This document shows, one piece after another, positions 7,053 through 57,800 of a DNA stretch of 64,000 nt (its first letter is position 1; each line of letters begins with the position of its first letter). Origin of the DNA: Naegleria gruberi (taxonomy: Eukaryota). A program made the translations under genes and the position numbers. The notes below the pieces were generated by a model that ran no database searches, was not told the DNA's origin, and saw only the letters and a list, made by a program, of their open reading frames with translations. The stretch is taken from assembly GCA_000004985.1 (NCBI GenBank), contig GG738908.1, one strand, 5' to 3'.

Positions 7053-7124
7053 GGGACCATGGTCTAGTGGTATGATTCTCGCTTTGGGTGCGAGAGGCCG
7101 TGGGTTCGATTCCCACTGGTCCCC
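7053..7124 (+). tRNA. tRNA-Pro (anticodon UGG)
   Basis: A 72-nt cloverleaf: acceptor GGGACCA/TGGTCCC, D-loop AGTGGTA, anticodon loop TTTGGGT, T-arm GTGGG-TTCGATT-CCCAC. Matches the eukaryotic tRNA-Pro consensus ...ATGATTCTCGCTTTGGGTGCGAGAGG.... Confidence 0.85.
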
Positions 7125-7323: not shown

Positions 7324-7396
7324 GGGGTCATGGCGCAGTCGGTAGCGCGTAGGTCTCATAATCCTAAGGTCGTGAGTTCGATCCTCACTGACCCCA
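7324..7396 (+). tRNA. tRNA-Met elongator (anticodon CAU)
   Basis: A 73-nt cloverleaf: GGGGTCA...TGACCCC acceptor, anticodon loop CTCATAA, T-arm GTGAG-TTCGATC-CTCAC. Very close to the eukaryotic elongator tRNA-Met (GCGCAGT.GGTAGCGCGT.GGTCTCATAATC..AAGGTCGTGAGTTCGATCCTCAC). Confidence 0.85.
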
Positions 7397-27428: not shown

Positions 27429-29003
27429 ATGATGAAGGGATTGAAAAAATCAGCCACGACACTTCTAAGATCGTCCAAGAGTGGTGGTATCAACTTTAAA
27501 GCAGCATCATTGATTTCGGAATTGAAGTTTGTTCCGAATCAATTGTTGATGAGAAATAACTTTTCTACTTCTTTGATACAACAACATGGCGACCACCACC
27601 ATGATCATCATCATCATGATTTGATGGAGGATGAACTGTTACCTACTCCTAAAAAGACAATTATCAATATTAAAGAACCTCCAATACCTACAGAAGTTGA
27701 TTTGGGAGCAATGGGTGAGCAAGTTGCAACAGCATCATCAGCCAATTCTGATCCAAAAGCTGCTGAACGTAAAATGAAAAGAGCAAGAACTGTAAATTAT
27801 CTTCAAAAACCACTCGAACAGAGAATTTTAGTATTGGAAAAGTATTTTGGAGTGAAACCAGAACTTGGAAAACCTGTGGAATTAACAAAGGAACAAATTG
27901 TAAATGTTTTAAATATTGAGGATCATGAGGAACAAAGAGCTCTCTTTGACTATGCCAATTCAATTACTGAATCAATTTATGGCTCAAAGGTTTACTTTAG
28001 AGGTATTATTGAATTTTCAAATGTTTGTCAGAAGGACTGCAATTATTGTGGTATTAGAAAACATATGCAAGTACCAAGATATACAATGCCAAAAGAAGAA
28101 ATAATAGAACAAGCTATTTGGGCCTATGAAAATCATTTTGGATCCATCATGTTACAATCTGGTGAATTGAATACAGAAGGAAGAATCTCAATGTTAGTCG
28201 ATGTCATTCGTGAAATTAAGAAACGTACAGGTGGAGGAGGTCCAGGTGAATGGAATAAGGGACTTGGTATTGCTCTCGGTGTTGGTGAATTGAGTAGAGA
28301 ATCTTATCAGAGATTATATGATGCTGGTGCTCACAGATATCTCCTAAGAATTGAAACATCCAATCCAGAACTCTACTCTAAACTCCATCCTAACGATGAA
28401 AATCACGTATGGGAAGAACGAAAGAAGTGCTTGGAAACTCTAATGGATATTGGATATCAAACTGGTACTGGTGTAATGATTATGATTCCAAATCAAACAG
28501 TTCAAGATTTGGCAGACGATTTACTCTTCTTTAGAAAAATTGGAGCTGATATGATTGGTATGGGACCATACATTGTTCAAGAAGGAACACCAATTGGAAA
28601 GATTTGGATGGAGCAATATGGTCACATGAATGAAGCAGAAAAGAAGGAATATAACAGAGTTCTATTCAGATTGGCTCTGAAGATGACTGCCCTGGCAAGA
28701 ATTTTAATTCCTGAAGCTAATATTTCTGCAACAACAGCTCTTCAAGCCATCAATCCAGCTGGTAGAGAAATAGCTTTAAGTTCTGGTGCCAATATGGTCA
28801 TGCCTATTATTACACCAACCAAGTATCGTGTCAATTATCAACTCTATCAAGGAAAACCTTGTATTGATGATACTAAGGAAGAATGTAAGAGATGTTTAAC
28901 AGATCGTGTTAAATGGTCTAACAAGCAATTGATTTTAGATGAATGGGGTGATCCAATCAGCTACTTTAATAAGAGAAATATGAAAGTACCGAACAAGGAA
29001 TAA
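27429..29003 (+). CDS. hydE: [FeFe]-hydrogenase maturase HydE (radical-SAM, biotin-synthase-like) with an N-terminal extension and a His-rich tract
   Basis: Radical-SAM CX3CX2C (CQKDCNYCGIRKH) and the HydE-type C-terminal CX7CX2C (CIDDTKEECKRC). N-terminus MMKGLKKSATTLLRSSKSGG... followed by HGDHHHDHHHHD. Confidence 0.85.
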   Translation: MMKGLKKSATTLLRSSKSGGINFKAASLISELKFVPNQLLMRNNFSTSLIQQHGDHHHDHHHHDLMEDELLPTPKKTIINIKEPPIPTEVDLGAMGEQVATASSANSDPKAAERKMKRARTVNYLQKPLEQRILVLEKYFGVKPELGKPVELTKEQIVNVLNIEDHEEQRALFDYANSITESIYGSKVYFRGIIEFSNVCQKDCNYCGIRKHMQVPRYTMPKEEIIEQAIWAYENHFGSIMLQSGELNTEGRISMLVDVIREIKKRTGGGGPGEWNKGLGIALGVGELSRESYQRLYDAGAHRYLLRIETSNPELYSKLHPNDENHVWEERKKCLETLMDIGYQTGTGVMIMIPNQTVQDLADDLLFFRKIGADMIGMGPYIVQEGTPIGKIWMEQYGHMNEAEKKEYNRVLFRLALKMTALARILIPEANISATTALQAINPAGREIALSSGANMVMPIITPTKYRVNYQLYQGKPCIDDTKEECKRCLTDRVKWSNKQLILDEWGDPISYFNKRNMKVPNKE

Positions 29004-31042: not shown

Positions 31043-34000
31043 ATGATTCCTTCCTCCTCTGACCCAGTAGCAGCGACAACTACAAAAACTGCTGTTGAAG
31101 GAGGAGTTATCGAACAACATGTGTCATCACCATATGACAGCTGCAGGAATCAACCAAATATTGACATTTCATTATCCACAACTTGTTTGAAAACCTCTGA
31201 ATATTCCAATAATACAATATCTACTCCCACTAGCAGCGCTGCTATTTCCAACAATATTTCCTCCACTACTACTACTCCATTATCCACAAAACTTTCCCTC
31301 CAAAATCTTCATCATCATCATCAGCCAAATAATAATAATAATTTATTTTCATCATTATCGATATCGGAGGGGAATACTTCACCACATGCGAGAAATGAAA
31401 GTAATAATAATAACAATAATGGAGGAAGTTATGCTGGTGGTGCTGTTGGAGGAGGTAATATAATTCTAACACTTTCAATGCCAACACCCAATACACCCAA
31501 TACGCCGAAAGGACAAACAGGTAATAATGCGAATCGACAGGAACATGAAGAGAAGGCTCCTGAAGATGCTGCCAATGATGATAATCTTGTAGGCAATGGA
31601 AGGAAGAGTAGTGGTGTCGATGTTGATCAGCCTCAAGTGCTGCTGAACAAATCCTCCTCTAATAATTCCTCTTCTTTTAATCACAACAATAATGAAATAT
31701 TTGGCGCCAATAATAATAACAAACAAGAAATATCTAAAATAACAACAAATAATCAGCAGCAACAAGAACAATATGTAGGAGGAGGACAAGAACAATATCA
31801 GCAGCAATATCAAATTATTCTAGTGAAGGAAAATCAACAACAACAACAACATGTTTATGAAAAACGAGGAAGTGAAGATCAGAGAGTTTCATTCTCTTCG
31901 GCAACAAGTGATTCTTCATCATCATCAACAATTCAGCCTTTGCACTTGACCAATAATAATAATTCAAATAATAATACTACTACTACTAGTGAATCATCGA
32001 CTAGCAATAACAATCAACGATCAATAGCCAAACCTCGACTTGTACCAATTATTCCCATTCAAAATATACAAAATCATCATCGAGGTTACTCACCATCCTC
32101 CTCCGATTCATCTTCTTCTTCCTCTGAAGAAGATTCAGGCTCCTCTGACTCTCCCAAAGTGAAAACAAGTATAACAACAACACCAACAGGAGACAAGGAA
32201 CCATCCTTCTCTTCATCCTCTTCATCATCAGCATTGACTACTAATCAGTCAAATCTTCACCTGACAGAGTATCACAATCATAATAATCGTTTTCATAATC
32301 GTACGCCTTCTTCACCCACTGCCAGATTAACTGACGATGTTAATACAATTAAATTATCAACCATTTCTCCAACATCACCTTCTTCACCTTCTGTTCTACC
32401 TTGGTCTCCACATACACCACCAGTCAACAAACAACAACAACCACAACAACATGCTCATCTCTTGACTCCCCTTCCAATTCACAAAATTTCTAGTCCTATG
32501 GATTCATCAGATGAGCCAGCAAGATTGACTGCTAGAACACAACAACCACTTTCACAATCATTTTCACAGGATGTTTTACCACTTTTTGATGATAATCATG
32601 TGGATCAATTGGTTACACATCGTACGAGTTCACTTAATTTACAGGCAAGTTATAAAGGTGGTCATATCAATCATGGCCATTCTCACGATCATGCCATACC
32701 TAAAATTCAACAACGTAGAGGTCAATATTTTCCTCACGATCAATTCAAGATTGTAATGACTGATTTCACAATACAAATCACTGAAAAGAACAATGAATCA
32801 ATAATTATTGAAGAGTATACAGAATTGAAATCTCTAGGAACTGGTGGACAAGCTACTGTTTTTTCAGGTCTTGAAAAGACTACTGGTGAAAGAGTGGCTC
32901 TGAAGGTTATTAATGCTGGAGGAAATTCAGCACAATTGTGGAATGAAGTAAGTTTCTTTAGCATCATTGATTCTAATGTAATTTTCAGTTTAATATTTTG
33001 AGAGTTTTAAAGCATTCTTCAATTATACCCGTATGGAAGTTGTACGAAACAAAGAATATTTTCAATTCAATGATTATGATTACAATGCCAGTGTATATTC
33101 ATGGCGACATGACAGCATTTATTACCAAATTTGCTCCTAAATATGACACAAATCCATTTACACCACACGTAAGTAATTAATACTCTTAATAACAATATCT
33201 AACAATATTTTAACAGTGTATTATAGACATGGTTCTTCAAATAACGGATGCAATTCAATATACACACTCTAAAGGCATTATTCACAGAGATTTGAAACCT
33301 GACAATATTTTCATTTCTTCATTGGAACTTGATAAGAAGAATAGAAAATTAATAACATCATGTAAAGTAACTTTGGGAGATTTTGGACTTTCTAAGAATA
33401 TACAACAATCTATGGCAGTTTCTGTTGTTGGTACACTTGGATGGATGAGTCCAGATCATTTGAATGGTAATTTTTCTCTCAAAACAGACATGTGGAGTCT
33501 GGGATGTATTATATATTATTTGATCAGCTTGGATGCTGCTCTTTTAAACACTAACGATATGATTAACGAGAATCATGCTGCACACAAAGTGAAAATGAGA
33601 GAGAATATGTACAAGGTTTGTATTAATAATTTACGAATGTGTTTGTTTTAACATTGCATTTAGAAAATGAATTCAACATTACCTTCAAAATTTGTGGAAT
33701 TAATAGATATTGTTGTTACTAAGTTATTGGAAAAGAATCCAGAGGAGAGATTATCTTCTCATGAATTCTTTTGGGATTATTTGATACCTTGGAGATTTAG
33801 AATTGATGAAACCGAGTTGACAGAAGTAGTCCCTGGAAAAGAAGGTCTTTATTCTTGGAATGGATCTACTGTAACATTAAGAAGGGTCACTAAAGATCAA
33901 TTTAAAACACTTATTCAACTCCGAGATATTCAATACATTACTAAAGTTCTAGGATACTTTACAACGTATGATGAATTAACAGATCAAGAGGAGATTTACA

Positions 34001-37000
34001 TCCTCCACAAACCTCAAGGTACCAATTTGAAGGCCTATCTTGTTCCATCGAATCCAAGATATGTCTCCCTTCATGACAAATTGGAAATTTTGCTCAAAAT
34101 TGCAACAGCCATCGAAGAAATTAATAGAACTACAGATATTAGATTTATTATCAAATTGGACGAATCTAAAATATATGTAAGTATTGTGTAAAGATTGCTA
34201 ATTCGAATACTAATTATTTAGATTGATGAACAAGGAGAAGTTACACTCTCAATTTTGGATGCCGTTCAAGTACAACAACAACCTATGGAAAAGGATAACA
34301 TTTATAATTTATATTTCTTTAGTTTGGATTTATTGGATGATTGTAGAGAAATTTATAACTATCCATTTGAGGAATCATATTCTATGGTTAGGAAAAAGAA
34401 TAGTTTGATTGATTTCCCAAGATTACTAGTTTTCGTCTTTAGTAATTCAATAGTAACTCATCCAAGCAAATATTCATCCATTTACGTCTCACAAAAGTTG
34501 TACACTCAACTCTATATGAATCACAAGTTCCCAGGGGATAAATATGCAGCCGAAAGAAAGGAAAGTGTTACCTCATATCCATCTATCCATTCCCCTAATT
34601 CTTTGAGTATGACTCCTCCAACAGAGAATCCACTTGGACAATCACCACCTCCTTCATCAAATATTGCCATCATTACCCAAACAATGGAAGCAGAGAAATT
34701 GACACCAGAAGAGCAGTTCCATTGTTCACACAAGAGAATTAAGGAAATGATTAGAGCCAACTCAATCAGGCACATTCTCAAATCTTATCATATTGGAAGA
34801 GATGGAAATGATAAAAAGTGGAGTAAAATAATTATTGAAGAAGAAGAGGAGGGTGAAGTTCAAGCTTATGAAGAATACAGTCACCTACAAAACTATCATC
34901 TCACCTCTAACGCTCATGGTACTGATTCTCCTGTGGAAATTTCAGGAAAAGCAAAGAAAAACCCTGAGCTAGTTCATGTTTCTATTGAATGTTTGAACTT
35001 CCAACCAATTCTATTCCGTGATTATTTCAATGGAAAACAACTAGAACCATTGTATTTATATTGGTACTTGATCGATATCAAACAAAAGAGAAGAATTTCA
35101 GAGACCTTCAGTTGTGATATCAACTCTAGAGAAATGAGAATCTTCCTGGGTGAAGACAATGAGGATGATGATCCACTTTCAGTCAAAAAGAGCAGATGTG
35201 CTGGCTATGAAGTTGATTCTAGTAACTCTGACATCATGGTTTTGTTTGTTGTGACAAAGACTCTACAAGGTTCTGACAGCATGGACGCCTACATTAAACC
35301 TGGTAAATCCAAGTTGTCAGAGGAAAAGTTCACCAAATCTGTCAATACTCTTTTCCCTACCTTAAAGAATTATCAACAAGTTGTTTCATGGGCTTGTGAA
35401 CCTCTCTTTGATTTTGAAGGAAATTTGATTTTACCTAAAGAAATTGAAACATTCTATTATATGGATGAGGTCAGAAATGAACATTCCTTCTATGAATTCT
35501 TTGAAAAGAGAGATGTCAAGAAAGAAAAGTTAGTTCCAATGACACTCAAACTTCACTGTGAGCTTACCAGAGCCTACGAAGCAACAACTGTCTCAAGCAA
35601 AGCAGCCGAAAGCCTTACCGATTTGAATGACCAATTTGCCACTTTGGATTTGAAATCTACTTCGTTTTACTTGAAGCAAACTAATGGCAATAACAATGGT
35701 TCCTACATGTGTAAAATGTTCACATTCGCTCCTAACTTTAGAAGCTCACTTACAGACAGTAACAATTTGTATATCTATCCACTTTCTACTGCTTTCAAAC
35801 GTCGTTTATTCTTGAAAGATATGAATGTTGGTATTATTGTGAAATTTAAGAGGAACGATAGAGATATTAGTGATGAAGGAGAACAAGTTTTCATCAAGAA
35901 GAATAACAAGACCTTCAAGGAAGGATTCAGCTCTGTTTCTTATCAATCTACCTCACCCCAATTCAATGATGAGCTCAAATTGCAACTACCAGAACAATTG
36001 GGCTCTGGTGACCATTTACTCTTTACTTTTGTCAATGTGGATTGTGCTGGAGACGAGAAGAATGTACAAGTTGTTGGTCACTCATACTACATGTTGTTGG
36101 GAAAGCATGGTCTGCTTGCCACCCATGGAAATCTTATTTTACCAATCTATAAGAGACTTACCCCAAAGAGCTACTTGCAGGCTAACGAAGATACAAAGAA
36201 GAATGGAGAGTTCAAGGTTGAATTCCAACCAATTTCAACACTTTACACCACTGATATTAACCTGTACGAATTCTTCTCTGCCAACGAAGTAGTCAAAGTC
36301 ATGAAAAGTATTTATGGAGAAAATTTGGCTGAAATTCAAAATAACATTTCTAAAAAGTTGAAGAATTTGGAAAAGGTTGTTGATTTTAGAAATCTCATCC
36401 AATACATGCCCCAAATTGTGGATGAATTGCTGTTAATGATCACACTAAAGCAATTCCCAAATGTTCAATCAGGAGCTTTTGGTCTACTCAACTCATATCT
36501 AGATAAGCTCAAAAAGACTGAAAGAAATACCAAACAATATATTGAAAGATATATCAAGGAAGCTTTTGTTAATCATCCAGATTCTACAGGTCTTCTTTTT
36601 GAACAACTGTTGAAGAGATATGTCAGAAATCTTGATGAGGAACAAAAGATGCGAGCTGAAAAAAAGGGTGAAAATTTCAATTTTTCAGTGTACAATTTTA
36701 TATCAGGTGGAGGATCACATGACGGATTCTTGATCAACATGCCAAATGATAGCATTACCATTGAAAATAGTTCTATCTACTTCCAACTTATTGAAAAGTC
36801 TTTAATTCTTTACATGAATAATCAAAAGTTACTCAATCAACAATATGGTGCTTATAGCCCTTTGAGGCATTTAAGTAAGAAGAAAGATGATGTTCCTGCA
36901 CCATTCTCTCAACTTTTGGATCTTCTTTCAGAGTTGAGAACACTAGTTGTGAAAGAATGCAAGTTTAGATATTCTACCTCCATGTCAGTTGCCAAGCTCC

Positions 37001-38841
37001 TTGTCTCATCTTATGCACAATTCTTGTGTGGATTGATGAATTTGATAGATAGAGGATTTATCATTACAGAAATTGAAATGTTCTTGGATGAATTCCTCCC
37101 ATCAAAAGATCAACAATTTGAACTCTTACAAGAACTGAAGAATATCTTCTTGAAACAAATTTCTTGCTATGACCACTTCCTGTCCATGTGTCTTGCATAC
37201 AGCACCTCAAGCTGCTTGCAATATGTGAAAAAGAATGGTAATTATATTGTTTATCACATGTGTGACACTCACTACTTGTCTGGCATTTTCATCAAGAGAT
37301 TCCTCCTCGACACTCTCCACAAACAACGCAAGGTCAGAGAGAAGGCAGCCATCACATTTAACTTTTTACTCTCCCGACACGAATACGATGCTCGATTCCA
37401 AAGTAAGGAAGAAAGACAAAAGATTGCTTCACTCTACTTCCCTTTCATTATTATAATTTGTGACTTGTGGAAAACTTATGAGGAGCTCACTAAAGCAGAT
37501 TCCAAATCACTGAAGGATACACCAGACAAACGTCCAGAAGCACAAACCATGCTCATCAACTTTTTACACATATTAATCAATACGAGAAAGAAGGTATTCA
37601 GACAGTGGTGGACTCAAGAAGCTGTGGAGAGAAAGAAGCAATTCATCAAGATTCTCTCATCAGTTCCAAAACTATTCAAATATGCCCACTCGAGAAATTC
37701 CAGTGCTGATGAAGATGAAGATCCCTATCATCAACATCAACATCCAATGGCAACTCCAAGAAGTAGCAGTCTCAAACCAGTATCCTCCAGAGAACAATCC
37801 GATGGTGCTCTCTCTCCAAGAGGTAAAAAGTCTGGCACTATGAAAGAAACAACTGGAAGAAAGAGTTTCATTTTCCCATTCGCTTCAAAGGACGATTCAT
37901 TCGATCCAAGGAAGGTTCCTCTTTCTAGATTTTCCTCACCAACTGTTAACAAGCTCTCTCACAGAACTTCTGTCAGCATCTTGAGAAGTCAACAATCCAG
38001 CTATTCTCAACTTTTCAGAGGTGATTCTAAGAAAAAGGCCAAAGAACAACAAAACAGATGGAGAAGAATTCTCTCAATTCAAGCCAGTATTGCTACTATG
38101 AGAATCATGTCTTGGATTTTCGAAGAGGAACTCTATCAACAACAGCAAAATGCAAGACCAAGTAGTCCTGATGATCTCACTTCGGATTTGTCCTATCTGA
38201 AAATCGTTTTGGAATTCTTCTTTTCACATTTGGAAGTTGAGCAATCCGAAACAACTTATCAATTGGTATTCCAATTACTTGCTCTCTTTGTGAAGAATTA
38301 CAAGATATACAGTTACTATTATTCACGTGAAGATTTAATTAGAAAGGTTAATGAATTTGCAACAAGATCAACCGTTGAATCTACCAAACTTACTGCACTT
38401 GCTTTCACAAAATGGGTCAAATTACAGCAGCAATTATTTGCATCCTTGTCTTTCTCTGCAAATTCTGTCAATAGACAATCCTCTTACAATATCAAACCAA
38501 TAGACAGAACCAAGTCATCAGGTGCTTCCAAATTTGATGGAATATTAAACATTTCTGACTTGTTGTGGAATATTAAAGTCAGATACAAGGAGAGACAATA
38601 CGTAGAACAGTTGAAGGGATGGCTCAACAGTCAACAACCAGATGTGATCACTGCTGTCGAATATTTGGAAAAGGAATTTGTCAAGTACATGTATCCAGAT
38701 GATTTCACACCAACTACAAATGTAAACAGTAAGGCAATGAGAGTTTCTGATAATGACAATGACGAAGAGGATCTTGAAAGTGTTCCTTCTGAAGAGGAAG
38801 GTGAAGAACTCTCGCTCTTCCAAGCACTACGACTAATGTAA
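31043..38841 (+). CDS. giant multidomain protein: low-complexity N-terminus, active protein kinase, pseudokinase, then DOCK-family (DHR-1 C2-like) GEF-like region. 5 exons: join(31043..32947,32989..33168,33217..33615,33664..34176,34222..38841)
   Basis: Four 41-48-nt GT..AG introns keep the frame across the kinase subdomains (GTGGQATVFSG...VALKV, HRDLKPDNIF, DFGLSK, SPD). The last intron falls inside a degenerate kinase-like domain (IRFIIKLDESKIY|IDEQGEVTLSILD). Downstream, LYIYPLS...HLLFTFVNV...GHSYYMLL...LPIYKRL matches the DOCK DHR-1. Confidence 0.55.
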
Positions 38842-39046: not shown

Positions 39047-39523
39047 ATGTTAAGCCGTTGGATGGGAGATATTTTCGATGAACCATTTGGAATTACTACT
39101 TGGGATCCATTTCTCAGTAGTGGTGGTGGCACTAGCGATCGTAACAGAGGTGGCGTAGATTTCTATAGAAATCAACTTGGCTCCTTCACTCCTTCAACTG
39201 ATGTCTCTGAAACTGACAAGTGCATTTGTGTTAAATCCAATTTGCCAGGTTTGAAGAAGGAAGATGTCAGAATTGATGTTGATGATGAAAAGAGACTCTT
39301 AACCTTCTCAGGTGAAACCAAATCTGAAAAGACTGATGAGAATGAAATCTATCACAGATCTGAAAGATATTATGGTAAATTCAGTAGATCTATGAGATTG
39401 CCACAAAATGTTGACTTGAATGGAATTAAGGCAAATATGAATGAAGGAGTTTTGAATATTTCAATTCCAAAAGTTGAACAAAAGGAAAAACAAGTCAAGA
39501 CTCGTTCCATTGGAGTTGATTAA
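39047..39523 (+). CDS. small heat-shock protein (Hsp20/alpha-crystallin domain)
   Basis: ATG at 39047 opens a 158-aa ORF. The alpha-crystallin domain (...DVRIDVDDEKRLLTFSGE...YHRSERYYGKFSRSMRLPQNVDLNGIKANMNEGVLNISIPK) is present. Confidence 0.8.
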   Translation: MLSRWMGDIFDEPFGITTWDPFLSSGGGTSDRNRGGVDFYRNQLGSFTPSTDVSETDKCICVKSNLPGLKKEDVRIDVDDEKRLLTFSGETKSEKTDENEIYHRSERYYGKFSRSMRLPQNVDLNGIKANMNEGVLNISIPKVEQKEKQVKTRSIGVD

Positions 39524-39581: not shown

Positions 39582-42290
39582 ATGAAACGAAACCATTCTT
39601 CCTTGTCGAGTGGTGAAACAGTGATACAACAAAATGAAGAATTGGAAAGGAAGAAAAAGAAAACACCATCTGCGTTTCTGGATTCCCTATTGGAAAGATA
39701 TGAAAAAGTCTTGTATTCCATTAAATCGGAACTTTCGAATAATACAACAACCATCAATTCCGATTTGAGAAAAGAACTCGACCATTGTCACTTTAGTCTG
39801 ATCAATCTAATGGATAATCCTATTTCAAATCAACCGAAAGAAGACTATTCATCCTACACTGAATATGTCGAACAAAGTATTAATGACGTTTTACCAGATC
39901 ATATTCTCTCACAAATATTCTCCTATTTGAGTTTTCATGATTTCCGAGAGGTTACTAGGACTTGTATGATGTGGAGGAGGATTTGCTTTACAATTCAGAG
40001 TGCTTTGAGCGCATTTGAGATTTCTGATGAGATGCCAGTCGAGTGTGCAATGAGTTTATTCACCAGATTTGTGGAATGGAGAATTGGAAGTATTAGAAAA
40101 GTGAATATTCATTCAATCAATGTGTTTACGAATTGTGGACACAAATTTACTGGTGTCAAGTTTCTGGAAGAAGCAAGTAGTATGGCATTGACTGGATTTC
40201 CAAATATTGAAAGGGTTAAAGAATTGGAAATTACATCAACCTTCTTTGGAGATATGTACAAATATCCTGGATTGGAATCAATCAAATTTTTGAAATTTAA
40301 GGATGCTGTAATTGATTTCTTTCATTGCTCATTGTTTGGATTGACTTTGGTAGAATCGCTTCTTCCATTAATTGATTTTGAAAAGGTTGACTCACTCAAA
40401 TTGGTAACTAATTCAAAATTACTGAATTCCTTAGCTTGTTATGCCAAAGAAAATATCCAATCAAAAGCAAATCTACTCTTTCAGAATATCAACTCTAAGA
40501 TTAAATATTTGAGAATCACTCTAGCTGAAGAATCAACTGAAGATGACGATTTTGAAGGAGAAGTTGACATTCCACTTTCCAATTTAGAGGAATTATATGT
40601 TGAATTCGCAACCGTACGAACGGTGAATATGCTCCATTTTGATCCAGAGAAATTGAAAAGATTACAGATTGGATCTTGGCACGGCAAACACACAATTGAA
40701 AATCCACTACAGCCAAGAGTTAGTTTTGAGTTGTTTCTCGTTTCAGAATTTCACCAATTGCTAAACAGATCGGCAAAAATTCAAACTCTAGTTTTGGATA
40801 ATGTCAAGCCATTATTTTACAGAACCTTTGCGTTTTCACAATTTAAAAACTTGACACATCTCCATGTTGCAGAAATGAGTAATTCTAATCTAACCCAACT
40901 TGCACCAAAGCTTCAAGTTCTCAAAGTTGGCACAATTACTGAATTTAATCCAGAGATTTTCAAATTATTTGGATCATTGAAGGAACTTGAAATGGATCCT
41001 AAATATGCTTCAAAGATTGACTTTAAAGACCTACCGAAACTTTCAAATATTACTTTACAATCATTTTCAGCTCATTACTCGATGGATATTAATTCAGATT
41101 CTTTGAAGAGTATTCGGGTTATGTCCCGAATAAGAACTCTCACCATCAATGCAATCAATCTTGAAACATTCGATTTGAAGGGAAATATTGACAAACTCTC
41201 TATCCGATCGAACCAATTAGAAGCATTAGGTGTGATGTCTTATAATCAAATAGGGGATTTGTCAATTCTTTCATTCCAAATTCCAAACCATGGATGTGAA
41301 AATGTGTCCCCTCTAAAGGAGTTAAATTTGGCTAATGTCTCAACTGTAAGACAATTGCATTGTCCTTATTTGAAAACAATTAAGGTTCAATCTATGGCAT
41401 CTATTTGCCAACTTGTAGATTTGGATCAAACTCCTCTTATTGAAATGATAATATTTGAAAAGGCGTTTATTGAACCAGATGCTTTCAAGACATGTTTGGA
41501 TTATTTTGAAAATCTCAAAACGATTGAATTTTTTGATTGTAATCTTGGATCCTCAGCAAATGAAATCATTGAATTCTCATCCACAATTGAAGTTATTGAA
41601 ATTTATGAGGGAAGTCCAGAATTGATCAGATTTTTAACTAGCTTATTCTCAGAATCACCAAGTATGAAAGCTATCTATTTAATGGACACGGAGGTTGAAG
41701 AAACCTTTATTGAATCCATTTCACAACCAAAAGCAGATCAGTGGAAGAATCTCGAATTAATATCCCTCCAGAATTGTGTCAACATTTCAGGAAAGGCAAT
41801 TTCAGACTTTTATTCAAATATCAAACATTATGCATCCCTCAAATCTCTCACTCTGGTCCTTTCACCAGGAAATGAAATTGTCTACGATGCAAGAATTCCA
41901 CAAACTTTGGAATCCTTTACTGGAATTTTCAATTCTGTGGAAATTATTCCAACCAGCACGGCAAGAAGCAATATGGTGAATTTAAAGACAATTACATTGG
42001 ATGGAAGAAATTCTACATTTTCAAATTTTGAGATTAATACATTTTTACAATCGATATTCGATTTGTTTGTGGATGATAAGGAAGAAATGGCTCCATTCAG
42101 GACAGAGTTATATTCGCTGTTAGCTTGTGAAAGGTTGATTGCAGATTCTGAAAGTGATCCTCCAGATTTCAAACTAATCAATAAGGTAGTTGCTGGAATT
42201 CCTTCTATTCGAATCGTTTCGAAACAGTTATTTACAGATGATCCAGTTTTATTGCTCAGTCAGCGGCCACATCTCAAATTGTGTGATTAA
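39582..42290 (+). CDS. F-box / leucine-rich-repeat protein
   Basis: ATG at 39582. F-box LPDHILSQIFSYLSFHDFREVTRTCMMWRRICF, then ~750 aa of irregular LRR-like Leu/Ile/Asn-rich repeats. Confidence 0.6.
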   Translation: MKRNHSSLSSGETVIQQNEELERKKKKTPSAFLDSLLERYEKVLYSIKSELSNNTTTINSDLRKELDHCHFSLINLMDNPISNQPKEDYSSYTEYVEQSINDVLPDHILSQIFSYLSFHDFREVTRTCMMWRRICFTIQSALSAFEISDEMPVECAMSLFTRFVEWRIGSIRKVNIHSINVFTNCGHKFTGVKFLEEASSMALTGFPNIERVKELEITSTFFGDMYKYPGLESIKFLKFKDAVIDFFHCSLFGLTLVESLLPLIDFEKVDSLKLVTNSKLLNSLACYAKENIQSKANLLFQNINSKIKYLRITLAEESTEDDDFEGEVDIPLSNLEELYVEFATVRTVNMLHFDPEKLKRLQIGSWHGKHTIENPLQPRVSFELFLVSEFHQLLNRSAKIQTLVLDNVKPLFYRTFAFSQFKNLTHLHVAEMSNSNLTQLAPKLQVLKVGTITEFNPEIFKLFGSLKELEMDPKYASKIDFKDLPKLSNITLQSFSAHYSMDINSDSLKSIRVMSRIRTLTINAINLETFDLKGNIDKLSIRSNQLEALGVMSYNQIGDLSILSFQIPNHGCENVSPLKELNLANVSTVRQLHCPYLKTIKVQSMASICQLVDLDQTPLIEMIIFEKAFIEPDAFKTCLDYFENLKTIEFFDCNLGSSANEIIEFSSTIEVIEIYEGSPELIRFLTSLFSESPSMKAIYLMDTEVEETFIESISQPKADQWKNLELISLQNCVNISGKAISDFYSNIKHYASLKSLTLVLSPGNEIVYDARIPQTLESFTGIFNSVEIIPTSTARSNMVNLKTITLDGRNSTFSNFEINTFLQSIFDLFVDDKEEMAPFRTELYSLLACERLIADSESDPPDFKLINKVVAGIPSIRIVSKQLFTDDPVLLLSQRPHLKLCD

Positions 42291-47543: not shown

Positions 47544-48658
47544 NNNNNNNNNNNNNNNNNNNNNNNNNNNNNNNNNNNNNNNNNNNNNNNNNNNNNNNNN
47601 NNNNNNNNNNNNNNNNNNNNNNNNNNNNNNNNNNNNNNNNNNNNNNNNNNNNNNNNNNNNNNNNNNNNNNNNNNNNNNNNNNNNNNNNNNNNNNNNNNNN
47701 NNNNNNNNNNNNNNNNNNNNNNNNNNNNNNNNNNNNNNNNNNNNNNNNNNNNNNNNNNNNNNNNNNNNNNNNNNNNNNNNNNNNNNNNNNNNNNNNNNNN
47801 NNNNNNNNNNNNNNNNNNNNNNNNNNNNNNNNNNNNNNNNNNNNNNNNNNNNNNNNNNNNNNNNNNNNNNNNNNNNNNNNNNNNNNNNNNNNNNNNNNNN
47901 NNNNNNNNNNNNNNNNNNNNNNNNNNNNNNNNNNNNNNNNNNNNNNNNNNNNNNNNNNNNNNNNNNNNNNNNNNNNNNNNNNNNNNNNNNNNNNNNNNNN
48001 NNNNNNNNNNNNNNNNNNNNNNNNNNNNNNNNNNNNNNNNNNNNNNNNNNNNNNNNNNNNNNNNNNNNNNNNNNNNNNNNNNNNNNNNNNNNNNNNNNNN
48101 NNNNNNNNNNNNNNNNNNNNNNNNNNNNNNNNNNNNNNNNNNNNNNNNNNNNNNNNNNNNNNNNNNNNNNNNNNNNNNNNNNNNNNNNNNNNNNNNNNNN
48201 NNNNNNNNNNNNNNNNNNNNNNNNNNNNNNNNNNNNNNNNNNNNNNNNNNNNNNNNNNNNNNNNNNNNNNNNNNNNNNNNNNNNNNNNNNNNNNNNNNNN
48301 NNNNNNNNNNNNNNNNNNNNNNNNNNNNNNNNNNNNNNNNNNNNNNNNNNNNNNNNNNNNNNNNNNNNNNNNNNNNNNNNNNNNNNNNNNNNNNNNNNNN
48401 NNNNNNNNNNNNNNNNNNNNNNNNNNNNNNNNNNNNNNNNNNNNNNNNNNNNNNNNNNNNNNNNNNNNNNNNNNNNNNNNNNNNNNNNNNNNNNNNNNNN
48501 NNNNNNNNNNNNNNNNNNNNNNNNNNNNNNNNNNNNNNNNNNNNNNNNNNNNNNNNNNNNNNNNNNNNNNNNNNNNNNNNNNNNNNNNNNNNNNNNNNNN
48601 NNNNNNNNNNNNNNNNNNNNNNNNNNNNNNNNNNNNNNNNNNNNNNNNNNNNNNNNNN
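47544..48658. other. assembly gap (1115 N)
   Basis: Run of N. ORFs predicted inside it are artefacts. Confidence 0.95.
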
Positions 48659-50358: not shown

Positions 50359-50408
50359 NNNNNNNNNNNNNNNNNNNNNNNNNNNNNNNNNNNNNNNNNN
50401 NNNNNNNN
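50359..50408. other. assembly gap (50 N) between two tandem element copies
   Basis: Run of N. Confidence 0.95.
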
Positions 50409-54768: not shown

Positions 54769-57700
54769 NNNNNNNNNNNNNNNNNNNNNNNNNNNNNNNN
54801 NNNNNNNNNNNNNNNNNNNNNNNNNNNNNNNNNNNNNNNNNNNNNNNNNNNNNNNNNNNNNNNNNNNNNNNNNNNNNNNNNNNNNNNNNNNNNNNNNNNN
54901 NNNNNNNNNNNNNNNNNNNNNNNNNNNNNNNNNNNNNNNNNNNNNNNNNNNNNNNNNNNNNNNNNNNNNNNNNNNNNNNNNNNNNNNNNNNNNNNNNNNN
55001 NNNNNNNNNNNNNNNNNNNNNNNNNNNNNNNNNNNNNNNNNNNNNNNNNNNNNNNNNNNNNNNNNNNNNNNNNNNNNNNNNNNNNNNNNNNNNNNNNNNN
55101 NNNNNNNNNNNNNNNNNNNNNNNNNNNNNNNNNNNNNNNNNNNNNNNNNNNNNNNNNNNNNNNNNNNNNNNNNNNNNNNNNNNNNNNNNNNNNNNNNNNN
55201 NNNNNNNNNNNNNNNNNNNNNNNNNNNNNNNNNNNNNNNNNNNNNNNNNNNNNNNNNNNNNNNNNNNNNNNNNNNNNNNNNNNNNNNNNNNNNNNNNNNN
55301 NNNNNNNNNNNNNNNNNNNNNNNNNNNNNNNNNNNNNNNNNNNNNNNNNNNNNNNNNNNNNNNNNNNNNNNNNNNNNNNNNNNNNNNNNNNNNNNNNNNN
55401 NNNNNNNNNNNNNNNNNNNNNNNNNNNNNNNNNNNNNNNNNNNNNNNNNNNNNNNNNNNNNNNNNNNNNNNNNNNNNNNNNNNNNNNNNNNNNNNNNNNN
55501 NNNNNNNNNNNNNNNNNNNNNNNNNNNNNNNNNNNNNNNNNNNNNNNNNNNNNNNNNNNNNNNNNNNNNNNNNNNNNNNNNNNNNNNNNNNNNNNNNNNN
55601 NNNNNNNNNNNNNNNNNNNNNNNNNNNNNNNNNNNNNNNNNNNNNNNNNNNNNNNNNNNNNNNNNNNNNNNNNNNNNNNNNNNNNNNNNNNNNNNNNNNN
55701 NNNNNNNNNNNNNNNNNNNNNNNNNNNNNNNNNNNNNNNNNNNNNNNNNNNNNNNNNNNNNNNNNNNNNNNNNNNNNNNNNNNNNNNNNNNNNNNNNNNN
55801 NNNNNNNNNNNNNNNNNNNNNNNNNNNNNNNNNNNNNNNNNNNNNNNNNNNNNNNNNNNNNNNNNNNNNNNNNNNNNNNNNNNNNNNNNNNNNNNNNNNN
55901 NNNNNNNNNNNNNNNNNNNNNNNNNNNNNNNNNNNNNNNNNNNNNNNNNNNNNNNNNNNNNNNNNNNNNNNNNNNNNNNNNNNNNNNNNNNNNNNNNNNN
56001 NNNNNNNNNNNNNNNNNNNNNNNNNNNNNNNNNNNNNNNNNNNNNNNNNNNNNNNNNNNNNNNNNNNNNNNNNNNNNNNNNNNNNNNNNNNNNNNNNNNN
56101 NNNNNNNNNNNNNNNNNNNNNNNNNNNNNNNNNNNNNNNNNNNNNNNNNNNNNNNNNNNNNNNNNNNNNNNNNNNNNNNNNNNNNNNNNNNNNNNNNNNN
56201 NNNNNNNNNNNNNNNNNNNNNNNNNNNNNNNNNNNNNNNNNNNNNNNNNNNNNNNNNNNNNNNNNNNNNNNNNNNNNNNNNNNNNNNNNNNNNNNNNNNN
56301 NNNNNNNNNNNNNNNNNNNNNNNNNNNNNNNNNNNNNNNNNNNNNNNNNNNNNNNNNNNNNNNNNNNNNNNNNNNNNNNNNNNNNNNNNNNNNNNNNNNN
56401 NNNNNNNNNNNNNNNNNNNNNNNNNNNNNNNNNNNNNNNNNNNNNNNNNNNNNNNNNNNNNNNNNNNNNNNNNNNNNNNNNNNNNNNNNNNNNNNNNNNN
56501 NNNNNNNNNNNNNNNNNNNNNNNNNNNNNNNNNNNNNNNNNNNNNNNNNNNNNNNNNNNNNNNNNNNNNNNNNNNNNNNNNNNNNNNNNNNNNNNNNNNN
56601 NNNNNNNNNNNNNNNNNNNNNNNNNNNNNNNNNNNNNNNNNNNNNNNNNNNNNNNNNNNNNNNNNNNNNNNNNNNNNNNNNNNNNNNNNNNNNNNNNNNN
56701 NNNNNNNNNNNNNNNNNNNNNNNNNNNNNNNNNNNNNNNNNNNNNNNNNNNNNNNNNNNNNNNNNNNNNNNNNNNNNNNNNNNNNNNNNNNNNNNNNNNN
56801 NNNNNNNNNNNNNNNNNNNNNNNNNNNNNNNNNNNNNNNNNNNNNNNNNNNNNNNNNNNNNNNNNNNNNNNNNNNNNNNNNNNNNNNNNNNNNNNNNNNN
56901 NNNNNNNNNNNNNNNNNNNNNNNNNNNNNNNNNNNNNNNNNNNNNNNNNNNNNNNNNNNNNNNNNNNNNNNNNNNNNNNNNNNNNNNNNNNNNNNNNNNN
57001 NNNNNNNNNNNNNNNNNNNNNNNNNNNNNNNNNNNNNNNNNNNNNNNNNNNNNNNNNNNNNNNNNNNNNNNNNNNNNNNNNNNNNNNNNNNNNNNNNNNN
57101 NNNNNNNNNNNNNNNNNNNNNNNNNNNNNNNNNNNNNNNNNNNNNNNNNNNNNNNNNNNNNNNNNNNNNNNNNNNNNNNNNNNNNNNNNNNNNNNNNNNN
57201 NNNNNNNNNNNNNNNNNNNNNNNNNNNNNNNNNNNNNNNNNNNNNNNNNNNNNNNNNNNNNNNNNNNNNNNNNNNNNNNNNNNNNNNNNNNNNNNNNNNN
57301 NNNNNNNNNNNNNNNNNNNNNNNNNNNNNNNNNNNNNNNNNNNNNNNNNNNNNNNNNNNNNNNNNNNNNNNNNNNNNNNNNNNNNNNNNNNNNNNNNNNN
57401 NNNNNNNNNNNNNNNNNNNNNNNNNNNNNNNNNNNNNNNNNNNNNNNNNNNNNNNNNNNNNNNNNNNNNNNNNNNNNNNNNNNNNNNNNNNNNNNNNNNN
57501 NNNNNNNNNNNNNNNNNNNNNNNNNNNNNNNNNNNNNNNNNNNNNNNNNNNNNNNNNNNNNNNNNNNNNNNNNNNNNNNNNNNNNNNNNNNNNNNNNNNN
57601 NNNNNNNNNNNNNNNNNNNNNNNNNNNNNNNNNNNNNNNNNNNNNNNNNNNNNNNNNNNNNNNNNNNNNNNNNNNNNNNNNNNNNNNNNNNNNNNNNNNN

Positions 57701-57800
57701 NNNNNNNNNNNNNNNNNNNNNNNNNNNNNNNNNNNNNNNNNNNNNNNNNNNNNNNNNNNNNNNNNNNNNNNNNNNNNNNNNNNNNNNNNNNNNNNNNNNN
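54769..57800. other. assembly gap (3032 N)
   Basis: Run of N. The flanking ORFs of X are artefacts. Confidence 0.95.

What the first reader, a model, noticed from the sequence alone, without database searches (positions are those of the whole stretch)
31043..38841. Single reading frame encoding kinase, pseudokinase and DOCK-family GEF: an unusual domain fusion
Four short introns (41-48 nt) keep one continuous frame from a Ser/Asn-rich N-terminus through a complete kinase with intact catalytic motifs (VALK, HRDLKPDN, DFG). The last intron cuts through the catalytic-loop region of the degenerate kinase-like domain that follows (...IIKLDESKIY|IDEQGEVTLSILD), which argues that the two large ORFs are one gene. 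A ~1500-aa region whose middle matches the DOCK DHR-1 (C2-like) signature comes next. DOCK GEFs for Rac/Cdc42 are not normally fused to kinase domains. Such a tandem kinase-pseudokinase-DOCK protein would couple phospho-signalling directly to Rho-GTPase activation.
Basis: partly seen in the sequence, partly recalled or inferred. Interest (0 to 1): 0.7.

Follow-up and report, generated by a model that had tools for sequence, protein, structure and literature searches.

The report
Kinase fused to GEF-less DOCK scaffold
This is one real, conserved Naegleria gene that joins an active protein kinase and a dead kinase-like domain to the membrane-binding and scaffold parts of a DOCK protein. It lacks the DOCK domain that activates Rho GTPases, so it is probably a membrane-targeted kinase rather than a kinase-GEF.

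Summary
The window is from Naegleria gruberi. The five-exon model (31043-38841, introns of 41/48/48/45 nt) is correct. It reproduces the public protein NAEGRDRAFT_81641 (2538 aa) exactly. All four intron positions are conserved in N. fowleri and N. lovaniensis.

Confirmed parts:
- An intact Ser/Thr kinase (Pfam Pkinase, E=3e-46).
- A DOCK DHR-1 domain (E=6e-28), flanked by DOCK-C-type C2 and ARM regions.

The "pseudokinase" is moderately supported. HMMER finds nothing there. A profile-profile alignment to kinases is collinear and beats 150/150 shuffles, and a low-confidence fold model retrieves only kinases.

The "GEF" part is not supported. Homology to DOCKs ends about 115 aa before the point where DHR-2 starts in N. 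gruberi's own canonical DOCK7-like paralog. Only 134 residues remain after that, and they are predicted helical or disordered. No DHR-2 is encoded anywhere in the window.

No kinase domain occurs in the other 149 closest DOCK relatives. Every domain is under strong purifying selection (dN/dS 0.02-0.08).

Best reading: a Naegleria-lineage DOCK paralog that lost its exchange domain and gained a kinase module. This is a new variant of known parts, of moderate interest.

The parts
31043..38841 (+). Whole gene (NAEGRDRAFT_81641). Exons: 31043-32947, 32989-33168, 33217-33615, 33664-34176, 34222-38841. Product 2538 aa.
31043..32722 (+). Low-complexity N-terminus rich in Ser/Asn/Thr/Gln (aa 1-560), poorly conserved.
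   Evidence: 31% identity to N. fowleri; dN/dS 0.28.
32816..33768 (+). Active-type Ser/Thr protein kinase domain (aa 592-863), interrupted by introns 1-3.
   Evidence: Pfam Pkinase E=2.7e-46. Motifs GTGGQATV, VALK, E635, HRDLKPDN, DFG, SPD and DMWSLG are all present. Best solved relatives are ULK1/2 and CDPK, E~2e-22. dN/dS 0.025.
33787..34524 (+). Degenerate kinase-like (pseudokinase) domain (aa ~870-1100), split by intron 4.
   Evidence: No Pfam or PDB sequence hit. hhalign against a 33-sequence kinase profile scores 27.4 (E=0.0024) and is collinear over 207 columns. 150 column shuffles gave mean 14.3, max 22.4. The AF2 model has pLDDT 45.7, yet all 43 Foldseek PDB hits below 1e-3 are kinases. 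In that alignment the beta3 Lys is Arg and the HRD and DFG Asp are Ile/Leu. dN/dS 0.05.
34177..34221 (+). Intron 4 (45 nt, phase 0), which joins the two large ORFs.
   Evidence: Same position in N. fowleri (69 nt), N. lovaniensis (61 nt) and metagenome locus L001 (~37 nt).
34525..34959 (+). Conserved linker (aa 1101-1245) with no detectable relatives outside the family.
   Evidence: A profile of aa 1020-1260 finds only the Naegleria-type proteins among the DOCK set.
34960..35574 (+). Region homologous to the DOCK-C C2 (DHR-3) domain (aa ~1246-1450).
   Evidence: BLASTP to the N. gruberi DOCK7-like paralog: 1252-1686 <-> 281-764, E=2.7e-35. Weak match to DOCK6 279-359. Domain naming follows PMC13503879.
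35758..36255 (+). DHR-1 (DOCK-C2) domain (aa 1512-1677).
   Evidence: Pfam PF14429 E=6.2e-28. Matches the DHR-1 of DOCK6 and DOCK8 in the PDB.
36256..37689 (+). DOCK ARM/TPR superhelical region (aa 1678-2155).
   Evidence: Precomputed PF28208 TPR_DOCK9. hhalign to the Tieghemostelium DOCK, probability 99.7%. dN/dS 0.025.
37690..38019 (+). Ser/Arg/Lys-rich, probably disordered insert (aa 2156-2265).
   Evidence: Low conservation; dN/dS 0.145.
38020..38436 (+). Last DOCK-homologous helical repeats (aa 2266-2404). These correspond to the segment that precedes DHR-2 in canonical DOCKs.
   Evidence: Profile positions 757-1060 align to 1306-1615 of the paralog P0157, whose DHR-2 starts at 1731. The same holds for the Willaertia, Anaeramoeba and other DOCKs.
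38437..38841 (+). Family-specific tail (aa 2405-2538) in the place of DHR-2. It has a nearly invariant ~58-aa helical piece (2437-2494), an acidic stretch, and a terminal S-L/I-F-Q-A-L-R motif.
   Evidence: The AF2 model shows only short helices and no strands, and Foldseek gives 0 hits below 1e-3.

Best explanation
This is one Naegleria-lineage gene encoding a 2538-aa signalling protein. In order it has a disordered N-terminus, a catalytically competent Ser/Thr kinase, a catalytically dead kinase-like domain, and then the non-catalytic chassis of a DOCK-C-type protein (C2/DHR-3, DHR-1, ARM repeats). It ends in a short family-specific tail where the DHR-2 exchange domain would normally be. It most likely arose by duplication of the heterolobosean DOCK7-like gene, followed by loss of DHR-2 and gain of the kinase module. 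Shown here: the gene structure, the domain content, the absence of DHR-2, and purifying selection on every folded part. Inferred: the protein cannot itself exchange nucleotide on Rho/Rac. Instead the DOCK-derived C2/DHR-1/ARM module probably serves to place or regulate the kinase, through phosphoinositide-rich membrane and/or protein partners, and the pseudokinase probably modulates the adjacent kinase.
For: Gene model and identity to the public protein. Intron positions conserved in three species plus a metagenomic relative, with synteny radical-SAM / this gene / HSP20. Domains. Absence of DHR-2: there is no Pfam hit. Homology ends 70-130 aa before DHR-2 in the Willaertia DOCK, in N. gruberi's own paralog, and in the Anaeramoeba and other DOCKs. 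Among the 153 proteins examined, 119 have DHR-2; the only long ones without it are the four Naegleria-type proteins. The tail is predicted helical or disordered. No DHR-2 coding capacity exists in the window. Paralogy: N. gruberi keeps a canonical 'dedicator of cytokinesis 7' with DHR-2 lobes A-C, and its cluster is the best non-self hit, E=2e-60. Selection: dN/dS is 0.02-0.08 for the kinase, pseudokinase-like, C2, DHR-1 and ARM regions. Lipid-binding plausibility: the L1 loop keeps the Ser and Arg that match DOCK6/7 at DOCK8 positions 570 and 576, and carries extra Lys/Arg.
Against: No transcript, protein or activity data were available. The functional role (membrane targeting or scaffolding of the kinase) is inference from domain content. 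[quoted passage not shown] Support for the pseudokinase is statistical and rests on a low-confidence model. The nearly invariant tail (aa 2437-2494) has no assigned function and could hold an unrecognised activity or partner site.
Confidence: 0.7

Rival explanations
1. One reading: a bona fide kinase-pseudokinase-DOCK GEF that activates Rac/Cdc42-type GTPases in cis with phospho-signalling.
For: A significant DHR-1 and ARM region and clear DOCK-C ancestry.
Against: DHR-2, the only known catalytic element of DOCK GEFs, is absent. There is no Pfam lobe A/B/C hit. Homology stops before DHR-2. Only 134 residues remain, and they are predicted helical or disordered. Lobes B and C bind the GTPase and lobe A dimerises (PMC13503879).
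Confidence: 0.04
2. There are two independent genes or transcripts (a kinase gene and a DHR-2-less DOCK-like gene) that were merged by gene prediction.
For: No transcript evidence was examined. A prokaryote-style gene caller reports the last exon alone as a 1523-aa ORF.
Against: Intron 4 is conserved in position and phase in four organisms, with lengths of 45/69/61/~37 nt. It lies inside a conserved domain that aligns collinearly to kinases across the junction. The sequence is conserved right up to both splice sites. Independent annotations of N. fowleri and N. lovaniensis give the same fusion.
Confidence: 0.05
3. The DOCK-derived half works as a regulator of the canonical DOCK7-like paralog. 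It would hetero-oligomerise with it through ARM/DHR-1 surfaces and bring a kinase to it, rather than acting mainly as a membrane anchor.
For: DOCK6 forms auto-inhibited tetramers through ARM-ARM and DHR-1/DHR-2 contacts, and its oligomeric state responds to phosphorylation (PMC13503879). N. gruberi retains the canonical paralog.
Against: This is pure inference. The paralogs share only ~24-25% identity. The lobe-A dimer interface is missing.
Confidence: 0.15
4. It is a decaying remnant of a DOCK gene (a pseudogene) that happens to stay open.
For: Loss of the catalytic domain.
Against: Intact ORFs of 2400-2540 codons in three species. dN/dS is 0.02-0.08 in all folded regions at dS~0.55-0.6. The C-terminus is conserved.
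Confidence: 0.01

Closest known systems
DOCK-C subfamily (DOCK6/7/8; Zizimin-related), including N. gruberi 'dedicator of cytokinesis 7' XP_002681330.1 and the Willaertia magna protein KAL9650827.1
   Same: A collinear C2(DHR-3)-DHR-1-ARM region. These are the best non-self relatives (E=2e-60). The DHR-1 L1 loop resembles DOCK6/7 at two of the three lipid-contact positions.
   Different: There is no DHR-2 (lobes A-C), so no known GEF or dimerisation element. There is no detectable DOCK_C-D_N domain. There is an extra N-terminal kinase plus kinase-like module and a family-specific tail.
Tandem kinase-pseudokinase proteins (for example the JAK JH1/JH2 arrangement, cited from general knowledge)
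   Same: An active kinase sits next to a degenerate kinase-like domain in one chain, which suggests allosteric control.
   Different: The order is kinase then pseudokinase. No sequence relationship was shown, and the pseudokinase here is far more degenerate and has a shortened C-lobe.
ULK-family and CAMK/CDPK-like Ser/Thr kinases
   Same: They are the best solved-structure matches to the kinase domain (ULK1/2 and CDPK4, E~1e-22 to 1e-20, ~30% identity).
   Different: There is no close ortholog: the best database hit is 31% identical. No ULK C-terminal domain or EF-hands are present. Family assignment is unresolved.

Membership tests
DOCK (CZH) family of Rho GEFs | DHR-1 / DOCK-C2 domain | tested here: met
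   PF14429 E=6.2e-28 at aa 1512-1677. Matches the DHR-1 of DOCK6 and DOCK8.
DOCK (CZH) family of Rho GEFs | DHR-2 catalytic domain (lobes A, B, C) | tested here: not met
   No PF06920, PF20421 or PF20422 hit. Homology ends 115 aa before the paralog's DHR-2. jackhmmer from a DHR-2 seed finds 119/153 DOCK relatives but none of the Naegleria-type proteins. The tail is 134 aa with no predicted strands. tblastn of the window is negative.
DOCK (CZH) family of Rho GEFs | ARM/TPR superhelix between DHR-1 and DHR-2 | tested here: met
   Precomputed PF28208 TPR_DOCK9. hhalign probability 99.7% over 845 columns.
DOCK (CZH) family of Rho GEFs | Nucleotide-exchange activity on Rho-family GTPases | not testable with these tools
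   Needs a biochemical GEF assay. Predicted absent.
DOCK-C/D subfamily | N-terminal DOCK_C-D_N domain (PF11878) | tested here: not met
   No Pfam hit. A profile of aa 1020-1260 finds no DOCK N-terminus.
DOCK-C/D subfamily | Second C2 (DHR-3) upstream of DHR-1 | tested here: met
   BLASTP 1252-1686 <-> paralog 281-764, E=2.7e-35. Weak match to DOCK6 279-359. The fold itself was not modelled.
Eukaryotic protein kinase (active) | Pkinase domain with the Gly-loop, VAIK Lys, alphaC Glu, HRD, DFG and APE-equivalent motifs | tested here: met
   PF00069 E=2.7e-46. Activity itself is not testable here.
Pseudokinase | Protein-kinase fold | tested here: inconclusive
   HMMER/Pfam/PDB searches are negative. 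hhalign to a kinase profile gives E=0.0024, and 0/150 shuffles reach its score. The Foldseek top hits are all kinases, but the model has pLDDT 45.7 and TM ~0.3. On balance the evidence favours a kinase fold.
Pseudokinase | Loss of one or more catalytic residues (beta3 Lys, HRD Asp, DFG Asp) | tested here: met
   In the hhalign register, VTLRRV has Arg for Lys, and IIKLDESK and SILD have no Asp at the HRD and DFG positions. This depends on that alignment.
ULK kinase family | Orthology of the kinase domain plus ULK-type C-terminal domains | tested here: inconclusive
   ULK1/2 are the top PDB hits but at only ~30% identity, on a par with CDPKs. No phylogeny was done.

The most novel reading that the evidence does not exclude
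A previously undescribed class of DOCK-derived 'pseudo-GEF kinases'. In this class the DOCK lipid-binding and ARM chassis has been repurposed to deliver or regulate a kinase-pseudokinase pair. One possibility is action on the canonical DOCK7-like GEF or on Rho-pathway components at the membrane of a fast-crawling amoeba, including the pathogen N. fowleri.
Probability: 0.3. Interest if true: 0.55.

Novelty: new variant of a known kind. Interest (0 to 1): 0.42.

Why it matters
DOCK proteins are defined by their DHR-2 exchange domain. This paralog has discarded that domain, kept DHR-1, C2 and ARM under strong selection, and acquired a kinase. That shows the DOCK chassis can be reused for a non-GEF purpose. 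It also gives a natural test of what the non-catalytic parts do on their own.

The gene is present in the brain-eating amoeba N. fowleri and has no close relative outside Naegleria-type organisms in the searches run here. That makes its divergent kinase a lineage-restricted signalling component.

The result also corrects a tempting mis-annotation. A DOCK-C2 hit does not make a protein a GEF.

Tried and rejected
- An exact-sequence look-up of the neighbouring HSP20 to identify the source found nothing. The organism came from the homology search instead.
- hhalign of the C-terminal 389 aa against a single DOCK sequence was not significant (E=0.57). A full HMMER scan of 1.84 billion representatives, followed by local domain tables, was needed to place the end of homology.
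- hhalign of the kinase-like region against the gene's own 3-sequence kinase alignment was not significant (E=0.28). It became informative only with a 33-sequence kinase profile.
- Both AlphaFold models were low-confidence because only 3-4 close orthologs exist. The C-terminal model gave no meaningful fold matches.
- The third homology search (kinase + kinase-like + linker) was swamped by ordinary kinases and did not even return the query's own cluster. It says little about whether the kinase-like region occurs elsewhere.
- Literature searches for a kinase-DOCK fusion, a DHR-2-less DOCK, or any of the accession numbers found nothing relevant.
- Whether Willaertia magna has an ortholog was not settled. 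Only its canonical DOCK was recovered.
Full report
**Source and gene model.** The window is Naegleria gruberi. Removing four GT..AG introns (32948-32988, 33169-33216, 33616-33663, 34177-34221; 41, 48, 48 and 45 nt; all phase 0) joins five exons into one 7617-nt frame from 31043 to the stop at 38841, giving 2538 aa. The product is identical to the public 'predicted protein' XP_002671092.1 / NAEGRDRAFT_81641 / UniProt D2VXT8. The sequence and model are therefore already in databases, though unnamed. No paper in the searchable library mentions it or its orthologs.

**Is it one gene?**
- Orthologs exist in N. fowleri (FDP41_010484, 2412 aa) and N. lovaniensis (C9374_009197, 2408 aa). A Naegleria-like organism in a JGI metagenome also has one (P0004, locus L001).
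- I mapped each protein back onto its genomic locus. All four N. gruberi introns sit at the same codon boundaries in both other species.
- The intron lengths differ: 82/140/78/69 nt and 52/90/62/61 nt. Several are not multiples of three, so the frame depends on splicing.
- Those two species have one extra 45-nt intron inside HRDL|KPDN. An alternative N. fowleri annotation that reads through it inserts 15 residues into the catalytic loop.
- In L001, introns 1 and 4 are retained and introns 2 and 3 are absent. There the kinase and the start of the next domain lie in a single uninterrupted exon.
- The junction intron lies at KIY|IDE in N. gruberi and the metagenomic relative, and at KIF|ID(E/D) in N. 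fowleri and N. lovaniensis.
- The gene order radical-SAM / this gene / HSP20 is conserved.
- I could not examine transcripts, but a mis-merge of two genes is unlikely.

**Kinase.** Pfam Pkinase covers aa 592-863 (E=2.7e-46). The Gly-loop, K621, E635, HRDLKPDN, DFG, an SPD variant of APE, and DMWSLG are all present. The nearest solved kinases are ULK1/2 and CDPK4 at about 30% identity. The best database relatives are also about 31% identical and match the kinase domain only. It is a divergent, unclassified, probably active Ser/Thr kinase.

**Kinase-like domain (aa ~870-1100).**
- HMMER methods see nothing: no Pfam hit at E<=10 in three orthologs and no kinase among PDB sequences.
- A profile-profile alignment against a 33-sequence kinase-domain alignment, built from the hits, gives a collinear match over 207 columns (query 6-225, kinase 2-257). 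The score is 27.4 and E=0.0024.
- 150 column-shuffled controls scored 14.3 +/- 2.5, with a maximum of 22.4. The reversed sequence scored 13.9.
- An AlphaFold model from three sequences is poor (pLDDT 45.7). Its strand/helix order fits a kinase N-lobe followed by alphaE and the catalytic-loop strands.
- All 43 Foldseek PDB hits below 1e-3 are protein kinases (IRAK4, RNase L, CK2, ABL and others), at TM ~0.3. The equally poor C-terminal model gave no coherent hits, so the kinase result is not simply an artefact of a weak model.
- In the alignment register the beta3 Lys is Arg, and the HRD and DFG aspartates are Ile/Leu.
- I regard a dead kinase-like domain as probable, not proven. It is strongly constrained (dN/dS 0.05).

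**DOCK-derived half.**
- DHR-1 is unambiguous: PF14429, E=6.2e-28, aa 1512-1677.
- phmmer against the PDB gives collinear matches to DOCK6 in its C2/DHR-3, DHR-1 and ARM regions, and to the DOCK8 DHR-1.
- hhalign to a Dictyostelid DOCK covers aa 1223-~2160 at 99.7% probability.
- The precomputed Pfam annotation adds TPR_DOCK9.
- DOCK6 is organised as NTD-C2(DHR-3)-DHR-1-ARM-DHR-2. Lobe A dimerises and lobes B and C bind the GTPase (PMC13503879).

**DHR-2 is missing.**
- Pfam finds none of the three lobes, although it finds all three in the Dictyostelid DOCK.
- A profile of aa 1339-2538 was searched against 1.84 billion representatives and found 599 relatives.
- In local re-analysis of the best 150, the profile aligns up to position ~1060 (residue ~2404). 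In every informative case that match ends 70-130 residues before DHR-2 begins. Examples: Willaertia magna KAL9650827.1 (match to 1607, DHR-2 from 1723); Anaeramoeba (to 1324, DHR-2 from 1397); an unnamed protein (to 1249, DHR-2 from 1375).
- N. gruberi has its own canonical paralog, 'dedicator of cytokinesis 7' (XP_002681330.1, 2284 aa, lobes A-C). There the match ends at 1615 and DHR-2 runs 1731-2266.
- Only 134 residues follow in the Naegleria protein. They are modelled as disordered segments with a few short helices and no strand, and they match nothing.
- tblastn with two DHR-2 queries finds nothing in the whole window. The next gene, HSP20, starts 206 nt after the stop.
- The C-terminus is conserved to the last residues in all four organisms, so the protein is not truncated by assembly.
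- Of the 153 proteins examined, 119 have DHR-2. Those without it are the four Naegleria-type proteins and fragments of 1335 aa or fewer.

**Rarity and origin.** No kinase domain occurs in any of the other 149 closest DOCK relatives. The closest non-self cluster is the Willaertia/Naegleria DOCK7-like protein (E=2e-60). This points to a duplication within Heterolobosea followed by DHR-2 loss and kinase gain. No phylogeny was built, and I could not establish whether Willaertia has an ortholog.

**Selection.** Between N. fowleri and N. lovaniensis (dS ~0.55-0.6), dN/dS values are:

| Region | dN/dS |
|---|---|
| Kinase | 0.025 |
| Kinase-like domain | 0.050 |
| C2 | 0.024 |
| DHR-1 | 0.056 |
| ARM | 0.025 |
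| Last helical repeats | 0.078 |
| Tail | 0.20 |
| Low-complexity N-terminus | 0.28 |

This is a working gene, not a relic.

**Mechanism (inference).** Without lobes B and C the protein cannot be a DOCK-type GEF. Without lobe A it lacks the usual dimer interface. What remains is what targets and organises DOCKs: two C2-type domains and the ARM superhelix. At the three DOCK8 PI(4,5)P2-contact positions (R570, K576, R581; PMC7893821) the Naegleria DHR-1 has Ser, Arg and Met, whereas DOCK6/7 have Ser, Arg and Arg. It also has additional Lys/Arg residues in the same loop. Lipid binding is therefore plausible but not assured. I propose that the DOCK chassis positions or regulates the kinase, and that the dead kinase-like domain modulates it. 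A variant is regulation of the canonical DOCK7-like paralog by hetero-oligomerisation, by analogy with the DOCK6 ARM-mediated auto-inhibited oligomers.

**Verdict.** The fusion is real and unusual, but it is kinase + pseudokinase + GEF-less DOCK scaffold, not kinase + GEF. It is a new variant built from known parts and is restricted, as far as these searches show, to Naegleria-type amoebae. Interest is moderate.

Noticed in passing
window 38437-38841 (aa 2405-2538): The tail that replaces DHR-2 contains a nearly invariant ~58-aa block (FDGxLNISDLLWNIKxRYKExQYVEQLKxWLNSQxPDVITAVExLEKEFVxYMYPDDF). This is followed by an acidic run and an invariant extreme C-terminal S-(L/I)-F-Q-A-L-R. The acidic stretch plus F-x-x-L resembles an LIR-type or other short docking motif, but that is a guess.
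   Followed up: partly
L002 5038-5082 and L003 4961-5005 (N. fowleri / N. lovaniensis): Both species have an extra 45-nt phase-0 intron inside the catalytic loop (HRDL|KPDN) that N. gruberi lacks. It has no in-frame stop. An alternative N. fowleri annotation (CAG4709671.1, 2429 aa) reads it as 15 residues, which would disrupt the catalytic loop.
   Followed up: yes
L001 1210-2022: The metagenomic Naegleria-like relative (JGI sample 3300002220) has lost introns 2 and 3 but keeps introns 1 and 4. This is an example of intron turnover within the genus-level group. The contig also has a run of N inside the kinase-like domain.
   Followed up: partly
window 27429-29003, 39047-39523, 39582-42290: The neighbours are a radical-SAM protein, an HSP20 small heat-shock protein and an F-box/LRR protein, all on the + strand. 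Radical-SAM and HSP20 flank the gene in all three Naegleria species. The next gene downstream differs: F-box/LRR here, an RGS protein in N. fowleri and N. lovaniensis.
   Followed up: partly
window 7053-7124 and 7324-7396: Two tRNA genes, tRNA-Pro(TGG) and tRNA-Met(CAT), lie 200 nt apart on the + strand.
   Followed up: no
window 47544-48658, 50359-50408, 54769-57800: Three runs of N (1115, 50 and 3032 nt) are assembly gaps. They explain the apparent very low GC in the composition profile.
   Followed up: yes
window 32942-33000: Intron 1 splits the kinase exactly after the alphaC glutamate (…LWNE|FNIL…). All four introns of the gene are phase 0 and all lie in the kinase / kinase-like part. The 4.6-kb DOCK-derived part has no intron in any species.
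   Followed up: partly
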